Of a stretch of DNA of 64,000 nucleotides, positions 15,001-18,000 are shown piece after piece (position 1 is the stretch's first letter; every line of letters begins with the position of its first letter). A program made the position numbers. The DNA lies in NCBI RefSeq assembly GCF_988242995.1, contig NZ_OZ547043.1. One strand, given 5' to 3'.

Positions 15001-18000
15001 ACTAAAGAACTGACAGAGATCTGCTATGACTGCAAAAACTAAATTTAAAAGTCCTGCATTTGAGGCTATTCACAGCGCAGCGGCTGGATTGTCCAGCGTC
15101 AATGCTATTTCTGCTGAAACGATGCGTACTTTTGACAAAGCCTGCCTGACCAGCGTGCAAGACTTACAACCTGTTGAGATAAAAGCACTGCGGGAAAAAT
15201 TAAAAGTGAGTCAGCCCGTCTTCGCTCACTATCTCAATACCAGCGTTTCAACTGTACAAAAATGGGAAAGTGGCGCTAAACGCCCCAATGGCATTTCATT
15301 AAAACTGCTCAGCATTGTGCAAAAACACGGGTTGGAGGTGCTGCTGTAAATAGAACGTAGATAATGCGTTCACCTACTGTCAGTTCCGATACCGGATGCG
15401 GCGTGAACGCCTTATCCACCCTACAGGTCAGGCGCGGTCTGTAGGCTGATAAGACGAAGCGGTTTTAATGCAGCCAGTGAACGCCCTCGGCAGGCTGAAA
15501 GAACGCGTTATAGCGCATCTGAAAAGCATTAATATCCTGCATTTCAGGTTCGGTTTCGCGCAGAAAACCCAGCGCCAGCCTGACCTGAGCATCGGTAATG
15601 GGAGCGGCAAGGCGGGCTTTTTGTAAAATCCGATGCCATTGCAGCAGGTTCTGTTCGCTACCATCGACAATGACAATTTGCCAGATGAGCAACACCTGCG
15701 CGGCGTTTTGCAGGTGCGACTCATCCGGGCGATGCAAATAACGTAAAAATTCGTCACCGGCTGACTTTCCCATTTGATCGACCATCGACTCCACGGGTAC
15801 GACATCGATATTCAGCCGATCGCTGAGACGGCGAATCGCTTTTCTGGCCCCGGATGTCAGCACCCGAAAACCAACCACAAACACTACCGCCAGCGTGGCG
15901 AGCATTATCCAGATCATGAGTTCTCCTGCGTAATCAGAACTCATGATATCTGGAAACCCTCGCCAGTTACTAATCCACCAGAATAATCTTCAGTGCAAAC
16001 AGAGCTGCGACCACCACCACACACAGGTTCAGATCGCGCCAGCGCCCGGTGCATACTTTCATGATGCAGTACGACATAAAGCCAAGTGCAATCCCTTCGG
16101 TGATCGAGAAAGTAAAGGGCATCATCACCGTGGTAATAAACGCAGGCACCGATTCGGTAAAATCATCCCAGTTAACGCGCGCCAGACTTGAGGTCATCAG
16201 CACGCCAACAAAGATTAACGCTCCGGCGGTTGCGTAAGGAGGAACCATCGCCACCAGCGGTGAGAAGAACATAACCAACAGGAACATAACGCCGACCACA
16301 ACCGCAGTCAGCCCCGTGCGACCACCGACTGCCACACCAGAAGTACTTTCAATATAGGCGGTAACAGACGAGGTGCCGATAAACGCGCCCGCCACCGAAC
16401 TGACGCTATCAACATACAGCGCCTTATTCATATTCGGGAATTTACCGTTACTATCTATTAAGCCAGCTTTATCAGTTACACCAATTAATGTTCCTGATGA
16501 ATCAAATAGGTTGATCAGCATAAAGGAGAAAATGATACCGGCGAGTTCAAGTGTTAACGCGCCGCTCAAATCTACTTCACCAATGACGCCGCTAATATCA
16601 GGCGGAATGGAATAGATGCCGCTAAAATGAACATCACCGAAAAATAATCCACAGCAAGACGTCACCACAATAGAAACAAGCACCGCGGCATGAAAATGAC
16701 GTGATGACAACACGGTTATAATAAAAAACCCTAAAATACCTAACAACACGCCGTGAGAACTTAAATCGCCAATCATCACCAGGGTGTCTTTATTGGCGAC
16801 AATAACGCCAGTATTTTTTAATCCCATTAAGGCGATAAATAATCCGATTCCGCTGGTGATACCAATACGTAAACTTAATGGAATGTTGGAGATCATCCAG
16901 TACCGGATACGAAATAGCGTGAGCAAAAATAGCCCAATTGCGCCCCAGAATATCGCGCCCATCCCGGTCTGCCAGGAGATACCCATCGCCCCCACGACCA
17001 CGAACGCAAAGAAGGCGTTCAGCCCCATTGCCGGAGCCAGCGCCACGGGTAAGTTAGCAAATATCCCCATCGCAATACTGCCGATACCGGCAATCAAACA
17101 GGTGGTAACAAACACCACTTTCGGGTCCATTTGTGCCGCGCCGAGGATTTGCGGGTTCACAAAAACGATGTACACCATGGTTAAAAAAGTGGTCATCCCC
17201 GCAATCAATTCTGTGCGGACGGTGGTCCCATGCTGAGGTAGTTTAAATAATCGCGAAAGCGTCCCTGATTCATTACTCACGTAATCGGTATTGTCATTAT
17301 TCATTTTTTTGTCCATTGGAGGAGATTTAATCCCTTGCTTTTGTAAAACAAATGACAACAACGGTTCAGTGATAATTATCACATTTCAATTGCACATTAA
17401 TGGATATTCTTTAATAATCTCGCGACGTTTCTTTATGATAAATAATAATCAAATTGATAAAATCAAAATGAGAAAAATATGAATAATTCTATTAACCATA
17501 AATTTCATCACATTAGCCGGGCGGAATACCAGGAATTGTTAGCCGTTTCCCGTGGCGACGCTGTTGCCGATTATATTATTGATAATGTCTCTATTCTCGA
17601 CCTGATCAATGGCGGAGAAATTTCCGGCCCAATTGTGATTAAAGGGCGTTACATTGCCGGTGTTGGCGCAGAATACACTGATGCTCCGGCTTTGCAGCGG
17701 ATTGATGCCCACGGCGCAACGGCGGTGCCAGGGTTTATTGATGCTCACCTGCATATTGAATCCAGCATGATGACGCCGGTCACCTTTGAAACCGCCACCC
17801 TGCCGCGCGGCCTGACAACTGTTATTTGCGATCCTCATGAAATCGTCAACGTGATGGGCGAAGCCGGTTTCGCCTGGTTTGCCCGCTGTGCCGAACAGGC
17901 AAGGCAAAACCAGTACTTGCAGGTCAGCTCTTGCGTACCCGCCCTGGAAGGCTGCGATGTTAACGGTGCCAGTTTTACCCTTGAACAGATGCTCGCCTGG

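What the first reader, a model, noticed from the sequence alone, without database searches (positions are those of the whole stretch)
17370..17381. Perfect 12-bp palindrome TGATAATTATCA in the divergent adeQ-ade control region
Seen in sequence: the palindrome is centred in the AT-rich intergenic region between divergent adeQ and ade. It contains GATAAT/ATTATC hexamers reminiscent of Fur-type half-sites, but is shorter than a canonical Fur box. It could be an operator for a dimeric regulator of purine salvage genes, or simply AT-rich H-NS-bound DNA.
Basis: inference. Interest (0 to 1): 0.2.

Follow-up and report, generated by a model that had tools for sequence, protein, structure and literature searches.

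The report
Known CRP site between adeQ and adeD
The palindrome is real, but it is the already published binding site of the global cAMP receptor protein (CRP) shared by the divergent adenine permease and adenine deaminase genes of E. coli, not a Fur-like or purine-specific operator.

Summary
TGATAATTATCA is at 17370-17381 as reported. It is the core of a perfect 14-bp palindrome, GTGATAATTATCAC (17369-17382), in the 174-bp, 27% G+C adeQ<>adeD spacer, which is identical to E. coli K-12. Palindromes of this size are no more frequent in the window than chance predicts, so palindromy alone is not evidence of function.

AGTGATAATTATCACA (17368-17383) matches the CRP core TGTGA-N6-TCACA at 9 of 10 positions. 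Across Escherichia, Citrobacter, Kluyvera and Cedecea, CAGTGAT and ATCACA are invariant. The central four bases vary (AATT, AGTT, TGCA, TACA), and that variation destroys the "Fur-like" GATAAT/ATTATC hexamers. The Fur consensus match is only 11/19, a level reached at 394 positions in the window.

This exact 16-mer is already published. Shimada et al. 2011 list it as the cAMP-CRP box of the yicO/ade spacer (genomic SELEX, Table S3). Li et al. 2021 report adeD and adeQ as CRP-activated in vivo, with CRP binding to their promoters in EMSA.

Inferred only, with no start-site data found: one CRP dimer sits near -41.5 of both back-to-back promoters. H-NS silencing of the region is known but does not explain the conservation pattern.

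Verdict: already known, low interest. An unexplained invariant 29-bp block lies just upstream of the adeD start codon.

The parts
17370..17381 (.). The 12-bp palindrome TGATAATTATCA as reported
17369..17382 (.). Full perfect palindrome GTGATAATTATCAC (14 bp), of the form GTGAT-N4-ATCAC
   Evidence: 1 observed against 0.05 expected per 64 kb.
17365..17386 (.). 22-bp cAMP-CRP binding site TTCAGTGATAATTATCACATTT. The core AGTGATAATTATCACA is 17368-17383 and the dyad centre is 17375.5. The centre lies 71.5 bp from the adeQ ATG and 103.5 bp from the adeD ATG.
   Evidence: The core matches at 9/10. The weight-matrix score is 13.7 bits, inside the range of 15 classic sites (10.7-17.3), and ranks 3rd of about 64,000 positions. 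Positions 17367-17373 and 17378-17383 are invariant while the centre varies. The exact 16-mer is listed as the CRP box of yicO<>ade in Shimada 2011 Table S3. CRP EMSA and CRP-dependent expression are reported in Li 2021.
17305..17478 (.). adeQ<>adeD divergent control region: 174 bp, 27% G+C, identical to K-12 MG1655 3843790-3843963. H-NS-silenced according to the literature.
   Evidence: H-NS: PMC2753651 and PMC13274399, both citing Petersen 2002.
15970..17304 (-). adeQ (yicO), adenine permease, 444 aa
17479..19245 (+). adeD (ade, yicP), adenine deaminase, 588 aa
17405..17417 (+). Predicted adeD core promoter (inference). The -10 hexamer is TATTCT (17405-17410; TAnnnT in all genera). An invariant A at 17417 is the predicted start, which would put CRP at -41.5 (class II).
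   Evidence: Ungapped comparison anchored on the CRP centre. G+28, T+30, A+31, T+35 and A+42 are among the few invariant columns between the CRP site and the block before the ATG. No transcription start-site data were found.
17333..17345 (-). Predicted adeQ core promoter (weaker inference). The -10-like hexamer is TACAAA (plus-strand 17340-17345; TA[AC]A[AT][AG] in the orthologues). The start would be near 17333 and CRP near -42.5. It lacks the usual T at -7.
   Evidence: invariant T, T, A, A at +29, +30, +32, +34 from the CRP centre.
17447..17475 (+). Invariant block AATCAA(A/T)TTGATAAAATCAAAATGAGAAA immediately upstream of the adeD ATG, at a conserved 79.5-80.5 bp from the CRP centre. Its function is not established.
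   Evidence: There is no Rfam match and no RNA structure (z = +0.8). It is unique in the window.

Best explanation
The palindrome is the centre of a single 22-bp binding site for the cAMP-CRP dimer (17365-17386, dyad at 17375.5), shared by the divergent adeQ and adeD promoters. When glucose is scarce and cAMP is high, CRP binds the two GTGA/TCAC half-sites and bends the DNA. It then recruits RNA polymerase to the two weak, AT-rich and H-NS-silenced promoters. This places adenine uptake and deamination in the catabolite-controlled scavenging regulon rather than under a purine-specific repressor.

Shown, by sequence analysis here and by published experiments: the motif, its conservation pattern, in-vitro CRP binding and CRP-dependent expression.

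Inferred only: the site lies at about -41.5 of adeD (-10 TATTCT at 17405-17410, start at A17417) and about -42.5 of adeQ. That would be a back-to-back class II arrangement in which one CRP dimer serves either promoter. I put about 0.4-0.45 on each position.
For: 1. Motif. AGTGATAATTATCACA matches TGTGA-N6-TCACA at 9/10. A weight matrix from 15 classic sites gives 13.7 bits against a training range of 10.7-17.3. It ranks 3rd of about 64,000 window positions, with 0.5 expected per 64 kb and P about 0.01 in spacer-like sequence.
2. Matrix control. The matrix put the known uhpT CRP site (20925-20946, not in the training set) on top and found the known ilvB site at 30101-30122. Both are confirmed by the RegulonDB rows in Shimada Table S4.
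3. Phylogenetic footprint. In E. coli plus 7 Citrobacter, Kluyvera and Cedecea spacers, CAGTGAT (17367-17373) and ATCACA (17378-17383) are 100% invariant. The central 17374-17377 is only 50% identical, and only 40% of spacer columns are invariant overall.
4. Position. The site is the best CRP-matrix hit upstream of adeD in every one of these orthologues. Its distance to the adeD ATG is 103.5-104.5 bp and to the adeQ ATG 69.5-73.5 bp.
5. Literature. Shimada et al. [quoted passage not shown] Li et al. 2021 Table 1 lists adeD and adeQ as 'Crp activation', from RNA-seq of wild type against a crp deletion plus CRP EMSA on the promoters.
6. Precedent. A single CRP site that controls both divergent promoters is documented for 11 E. 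coli spacers and in the El-Robh & Busby model system.
7. Population. The 48 bp around the site are 100% identical in 5293 of 5381 E. coli genomes.
Against: - The left half-site has A instead of T at the first core position (AGTGA), in all orthologues.
- No transcription start sites were found for either gene in the data sets I could reach, so the class II assignment is only a spacing argument. Other -10/-35 pairs exist in this AT-rich DNA.
- The proposed adeQ -10 lacks T at -7.
- The held supplements of the CRP ChIP-exo study do not mention the locus. This could reflect H-NS occlusion in vivo under those conditions, or incomplete files.
- I could not read Data S5 of Li 2021 to confirm that their predicted site is this one.
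- The weight matrix was built from sites recalled from memory. Only the ilvB training site, and separately the uhpT site that was not in the training set, were checked against an external source.
Confidence: 0.93

Rival explanations
1. Fur or Fur-like operator: the GATAAT/ATTATC hexamers bind an iron-responsive (or related) dimer that controls the iron/manganese-dependent adenine deaminase.
For: The palindrome contains GATAAT and ATTATC. AdeD is a metal-dependent enzyme (PMC6958661 citing Kamat 2011).
Against: The match to the 19-bp Fur consensus is 11/19, a level reached at 394 window positions. The match to the 7-1-7 model is 10/14, and the arrangement is 6-0-6 rather than 7-1-7. The hexamers are destroyed in the orthologues (GATTGC, GATTAC, GATAGT) while GTGAT/ATCAC stays invariant. 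Li 2021 list only shiA as a new Fur target and place adeD and adeQ under Crp.
Confidence: 0.02
2. The palindrome has no sequence-specific function. It is a chance palindrome in AT-rich, H-NS-coated DNA.
For: Palindromes of at least 12 or 14 bp are at or below chance frequency in the window. The spacer is 26-27% G+C. H-NS silencing of ade is documented.
Against: The G/C-containing half-sites are invariant across four genera while the AT-only centre varies. This is the opposite of what generic AT-rich H-NS binding predicts. The distance to both start codons is conserved. The exact sequence was selected by cAMP-CRP in genomic SELEX.
Confidence: 0.02
3. A dedicated dimeric regulator of adenine utilisation uses the same palindrome, alone or in competition with CRP. 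It could be a second CRP/FNR-family protein, or PlaR/YiaJ, which gave a gSELEX peak in this spacer.
For: PlaR gSELEX lists adeQ and adeD as targets. Conservation extends slightly beyond the canonical CRP 22-mer (C17387, A17389).
Against: No PlaR box (ATnTGAAACnnnGTTCAnTT) is found in the spacer at up to 3 mismatches. The conserved bases are those of the TGTGA/TCACA core that defines CRP sites (established knowledge), and the data at hand need no other factor.
Confidence: 0.05
4. The palindrome is a core promoter element, with AATTAT or ATAATT as a -10 hexamer for one of the divergent genes, rather than a factor-binding site.
For: The promoter scan reports ATGACA-16-AATTAT ending at 17379.
Against: The scan found 4 such hits in the region against 2.0 expected. 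Neither the -35 (ATGACA) nor the central hexamer is conserved in the orthologues.
Confidence: 0.02

Closest known systems
cAMP-CRP (CAP) binding sites of E. coli. In particular, single sites shared by divergent promoters (araBAD-araC, gcd-hpt, glpEGR-glpD and others; El-Robh & Busby 2002 model) and class II promoters such as galP1.
   Same: It has a 22-bp two-fold symmetric site with a TGTGA-N6-TCACA core. It was selected by cAMP-CRP in vitro, shows CRP-dependent activation in vivo, sits in a divergent spacer, and has free central bases.
   Different: Nothing essential. The first core base is A rather than T. The promoter positions (-41.5 and about -42.5) are my inference, not mapped. The promoters are also H-NS-silenced, so CRP may have to act against a silencer.
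Fur box (19-bp GATAATGATAATCATTATC, or the 7-1-7 model TGATAATnATTATCA)
   Same: It shares the hexamers GATAAT/ATTATC and an AT-rich palindromic look.
   Different: It is three bases too short for 7-1-7 and matches only 11/19 of the 19-mer. The hexamers are not conserved in orthologues, and there is no reported Fur dependence.
H-NS-silenced cryptic loci activated by IS insertion (bgl, ade)
   Same: This is the ade locus of Petersen et al. 2002. The spacer is AT-rich, and IS insertions upstream of adeD are still being recovered in evolution experiments.
   Different: H-NS silencing concerns the whole region. The palindrome itself shows a CRP-type footprint, not an H-NS-type one.
CRP/CytR-controlled nucleoside catabolism and uptake promoters (deoP2, udp, cdd, nupC, nupG, tsx)
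   Same: CRP activates genes that scavenge nucleic-acid building blocks when carbon is limiting.
   Different: Those promoters have tandem CRP sites, which I recall as about 52 bp apart, that bracket a CytR site. Here there is one strong site, plus a weak 7.8-bit one only 26 bp away and only in Escherichia. CytR involvement was not tested.

Membership tests
cAMP-CRP binding site | 22-bp two-fold symmetric sequence with the core TGTGA-N6-TCACA | tested here: met
   9/10 core positions match. The score is 13.7 bits, within the range of the classic sites. The half-sites are perfectly symmetric: GTGAT/ATCAC.
cAMP-CRP binding site | Half-site bases conserved and central spacer free in orthologous regions | tested here: met
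   17367-17373 and 17378-17383 are invariant in 4 genera. 17374-17377 is 50% identical.
cAMP-CRP binding site | Bound by cAMP-CRP in vitro | not testable with these tools
   From the literature: genomic SELEX lists this exact 16-mer for yicO<>ade (Shimada 2011 Table S3). EMSA was positive for the adeD and adeQ promoters (Li 2021).
cAMP-CRP binding site | Expression of the flanking genes depends on crp in vivo | not testable with these tools
   From the literature: Li 2021 Table 1 gives 'Crp activation' for adeD and adeQ.
cAMP-CRP binding site | Centre at a functional distance from a transcription start (-41.5 for class II; -61.5, -71.5 and so on for class I) | tested here: inconclusive
   A conserved TAnnnT at 17405-17410 and A17417 would give -41.5 for adeD. 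A TA-hexamer at 17345-17340 would give about -42.5 for adeQ. No start-site data were found, and alternative promoters are possible.
Fur box | Good match to the 19-bp consensus, or to the 7-1-7 inverted repeat with correct spacing | tested here: not met
   11/19, with 394 equal or better positions in the window. 10/14 for 7-1-7. The arrangement is 6-0-6.
Fur box | Conservation of the GATAAT-type hexamers in orthologues | tested here: not met
   Citrobacter and Kluyvera carry GATTGC, GATTAC or GATAGT.
Fur box | Fur binding or iron-dependent expression | not tested
   No report was found among the papers that mention adeQ or adeD. Li 2021 list only shiA as a new Fur target.
H-NS-bound silencing region | AT-rich DNA at a promoter that is de-repressed in hns mutants | tested here: met
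   G+C is 26% over 17300-17499 against about 52% in the flanks. De-repression comes from the literature only. This applies to the region, not specifically to the palindrome.
PlaR (YiaJ) box | ATnTGAAACnnnGTTCAnTT | tested here: not met
   No match in the spacer at up to 3 mismatches, although the spacer is listed as a gSELEX target.

The most novel reading that the evidence does not exclude
The site may be a natural, evolutionarily fixed example of one CRP dimer sitting at about -41.5 of two back-to-back class II promoters, with starts about 84 bp apart. The two RNA polymerases would then compete for the same activator, and CRP would also have to displace H-NS. In addition, the invariant 29-bp block before the adeD ATG (17447-17475) may be a second, undescribed control element, either an operator or a leader signal, that gates adeD specifically. 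Neither idea is excluded by my data, and neither has been tested.
Probability: 0.25. Interest if true: 0.35.

Novelty: already known. Interest (0 to 1): 0.08.

Why it matters
It matters little beyond correct annotation. The palindrome should be labelled as the CRP box of the adeQ/adeD spacer, not as a Fur-like or purine-specific operator. It explains why a 'cryptic', H-NS-silenced adenine deaminase and its permease respond to carbon limitation, and it places adenine scavenging in the catabolite regulon. The open points are modest: the exact promoter architecture around the shared site, and the meaning of the invariant block upstream of the adeD start codon.

Tried and rejected
- Fur: consensus and 7-1-7 scoring and orthologue comparison. 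Rejected.
- PlaR/KdgR-type box: pattern search. No match in the spacer.
- Palindrome enrichment. None found, so palindromy alone is not evidence.
- Core CRP pattern at up to 1 mismatch in the window: 2 found against 1.8 expected. It is uninformative by itself, and the weight matrix, spacer-restricted statistics and conservation were needed.
- RNA element in the spacer or leader: no Rfam match and no structure on folding (z = +0.8).
- Promoter consensus scan: 4 hits against 2.0 expected. Not discriminating in AT-rich DNA.
- Start-site hunting: Conway 2014 (no supplements held), Kim 2012 (no entry by gene name or coordinate), Mendoza-Vargas 2009 (only an intragenic antisense start in ade).
- CRP ChIP-exo supplements: no mention of the locus.
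- Papers not held: Petersen 2002, Zheng 2004, Grainger 2005, Seo 2014.
- Li 2021 Data S5: not held.
- One literature search was wasted on 'adeq' matching 'adequacy'.
- A 'cat' CRP site recalled in the wrong register was dropped from the matrix.
- Distant adeD orthologues without the adeQ synteny (Serratia sp. DD3, Morganella): only weaker, differently spaced CRP-like matches, so conservation is claimed for Enterobacteriaceae only.

Full report
**1. Observation**

The window is E. coli chromosome. A 601-bp stretch around the finding is present in 5412 of 5426 complete genomes, annotated as adeQ (adenine permease) and adeD (adenine deaminase). The 174-bp spacer 17305-17478 is identical to K-12 MG1655 3843790-3843963.

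TGATAATTATCA is at 17370-17381 exactly as reported. The perfect palindrome is 14 bp long, GTGATAATTATCAC at 17369-17382.

adeQ is on the minus strand and starts at the ATG at 17304. The longer mechanical ORF, which starts at a GTG inside the palindrome, is an artefact of ORF listing. adeD starts at 17479. The dyad centre, 17375.5, lies 71.5 bp from the adeQ ATG and 103.5 bp from the adeD ATG. It is 16 bp off the spacer midpoint.

As a palindrome it is unremarkable. The window holds 18 perfect palindromes of at least 12 bp against 19 expected, and 2 of at least 14 bp against 4.8 expected.

**2. What it is**

Read with its flanks, the element is AGTGATAATTATCACA (17368-17383). This matches the CRP core TGTGA-N6-TCACA at 9 of 10 positions. 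The 22-mer TTCAGTGATAATTATCACATTT has a perfect consensus right half (ATCACATTT).

A core match with one mismatch is expected about 1.8 times per 64 kb, so I scored the site more carefully. I built a symmetric weight matrix from 15 classic CRP sites recalled from memory.
- The matrix gives the site 13.7 bits, inside the range of the training sites (10.7-17.3).
- It ranks third of about 64,000 window positions. About 0.5 such hits are expected per 64 kb, and P is about 0.01 in a 174-bp sequence of the spacer's own composition.
- As a control, the top hit in the window is the known uhpT CRP site (20925-20946), which was not in the training set. The known ilvB site is found at 30101-30122. Both agree with the RegulonDB rows reproduced in Shimada et al. 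Table S4.
- The exact pattern GTGAT-N4-ATCAC occurs once against 0.05 expected.

**3. Conservation**

A scan of one genome per species with AdeD returned syntenic adeQ<>adeD spacers from six Escherichia lineages, four Citrobacter, two Kluyvera and one Cedecea. I aligned E. coli with the seven non-Escherichia sequences.
- CAGTGAT (17367-17373) and ATCACA (17378-17383) are invariant.
- The four central bases are AATT, AGTT, TGCA or TACA, only 50% identical.
- Only 40% of spacer columns are invariant overall.

The site is the best CRP-matrix hit upstream of adeD in every one of these orthologues. Its distance to the adeD ATG stays at 103.5-104.5 bp and to the adeQ ATG at 69.5-73.5 bp, although the sequence in between diverges. 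Within E. coli, the 48 bp around it are identical in 5293 of 5381 genomes.

Fur does poorly. The match is 11/19 to the 19-bp consensus, with 394 equal or better positions in the window. The match to the 7-1-7 model is 10/14 with the wrong spacing.

**4. Literature**

The site is already published.
- Shimada et al. [quoted passage not shown] Its database column is empty, which I read as meaning it was a new target at the time.
- Li et al. [quoted passage not shown] The basis was RNA-seq across carbon sources and in a crp deletion, plus CRP EMSA on the promoters. A site was predicted in Data S5, which I could not read.
- H-NS silencing of ade and its activation by IS elements (Petersen et al. 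2002) is summarised in PMC2753651 and PMC13274399. The second paper again recovered IS insertions upstream of adeD in evolution experiments.
- PlaR (YiaJ) gSELEX also lists this spacer, but I found no PlaR box in it at up to 3 mismatches.
- A single CRP site that controls both divergent promoters is described for 11 E. coli spacers and in the El-Robh & Busby model system.

**5. Mechanism**

Shown or published: cAMP-CRP binds this site, and both genes need CRP for expression.

Inferred: when sequences are lined up without gaps on the CRP centre, the few invariant columns toward adeD are G+28, A+29, T+30, A+31, T+35, A+38, A+39 and A+42.
- T+30, A+31 and T+35 are the key -12, -11 and -7 positions of a -10 hexamer. 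This is TATTCT at 17405-17410 in E. coli, and TAAACT, TAAGCT, TAAAGT, TAGACT or TAAAAT elsewhere.
- A+42 (17417) is where the start would fall. That gives CRP at -41.5, a class II arrangement.

Toward adeQ, a TA[AC]A[AT][AG] hexamer (17345-17340 on the minus strand) gives a start near 17333 and CRP near -42.5. It lacks T at -7, so this call is weaker.

Alternatives for adeD are TTAATA-17-TATGAT (start about 17446, CRP at -70.5) and an extended -10, TGATAAAAT (start about 17470, CRP at about -94.5). No start-site data could be found for either gene, which is unsurprising for a silenced locus.

From memory only, Petersen's abstract places activating IS insertions between -145 and +13. This fits 17417 or 17446, but not 17470.

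The physiological logic is inference. CRP puts adenine uptake and deamination among the scavenging functions switched on by carbon limitation, next to the CRP-controlled nucleoside genes.

**6. Comparison, novelty and verdict**

The element passes the sequence and conservation tests of a CRP site. The biochemical and genetic tests are passed in the literature. It fails the Fur tests.

It is already known, and its interest is low.

**7. Still unexplained**

- The invariant block 17447-17475, AATCAA(A/T)TTGATAAAATCAAAATGAGAAA, just before the adeD ATG is the longest invariant run in the spacer. It lies at a fixed distance from the CRP site.
- It has no Rfam match and no predicted RNA structure, and it is unique in the window.
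- It is made of alternating ATCAA/TTGAT pentamers. Its only variable base is the centre of the ATCAA-N-TTGAT palindrome.
- It could be a core promoter, a leader signal or an operator for an unidentified factor.

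Noticed in passing
window 17447-17475: A 29-bp block, AATCAA(A/T)TTGATAAAATCAAAATGAGAAA, directly upstream of the adeD ATG is invariant in Escherichia, Citrobacter, Kluyvera and Cedecea. It is the longest invariant run in the spacer and lies a fixed 79.5-80.5 bp from the CRP centre. It consists of alternating ATCAA/TTGAT pentamers, and the only variable base (17453) is a palindrome centre. It contains an extended -10-like TGATAAAAT. Similar ATCAAAATGA(T/G)AA strings occur upstream of adeD in Serratia sp. DD3 and Morganella. There is no Rfam hit, no RNA structure and no other copy in the window. Its function is unknown.
   Followed up: partly
window 17402-17417: Invariant GATA...T...AA..A between the CRP site and the block above. 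I read it as a -10 (TAnnnT) plus start site. However, in the other genera the sequence is TCGATAAACT, which also resembles the H-NS high-affinity motif TCGATAAATT (recalled from memory). It could therefore be, or also be, an H-NS nucleation site over the adeD promoter.
   Followed up: partly
L004:2387-2408 (Escherichia albertii NBRC 107761): The CRP site carries TCACA to TAACA. From established knowledge, this is one of the G:C pairs of the core that CRP contacts directly. The matrix score drops from 13.7 to 10.5 bits, which suggests weakened CRP control of adeQ and adeD in this strain.
   Followed up: no
window 14683-15349: About 793 bp present here between nepI and yicN are absent from K-12. 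They hold two overlapping ORFs: a RelE-family toxin (Pfam PF06296, E = 1e-40) and an HTH_3/MqsA-like antitoxin. This is a strain-variable toxin-antitoxin module.
   Followed up: partly
window 14508-14529 and 14466-14481: The second-best CRP-matrix hit in the window, ATGTGTGACGCATTTAACGTTT (15.0 bits in the first version of the matrix), lies just upstream of nepI, the purine ribonucleoside exporter. Shimada 2011 report a CRP SELEX peak in nepI<>yicN but assign it the box CCTGAAACATGCCACG, which I located by eye at 14466-14481 on the minus strand, about 45 bp away. The better-scoring neighbour may be the real site.
   Followed up: no
window 20925-20946 and 30101-30122: The known CRP sites of uhpT (-103.5) and ivbL-ilvBN (-64) were recovered by the matrix. 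They served as positive controls and match the RegulonDB rows in Shimada Table S4.
   Followed up: yes
L038 (E. coli NCTC9080, NZ_LR134295.1 36545-42598): In this strain an IS1A element abuts a 5'-truncated adeD. The spacer, the CRP site and adeQ are gone, replaced by IS fragments and an autotransporter gene. 26 of the 5412 matching genomes lack a match covering at least 80% of the 601-bp query around the spacer (17100-17700).
   Followed up: partly
window 17339-17360: A weak second CRP-like 22-mer, TTTTGTAAAACAAATGACAACA (7.8 bits), lies 26 bp from the main site. It is present only in Escherichia and overlaps the proposed adeQ -10. It is probably not functional.
   Followed up: partly
window 17305-17478: PlaR (YiaJ) genomic SELEX lists the adeQ/adeD spacer as a target (PMC6958661), but no PlaR box is found at up to 3 mismatches. 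The nearest look-alike, AAATGACAACAACGGTTCAGTG (about 17350-17371), abuts the CRP site and is Escherichia-specific.
   Followed up: partly
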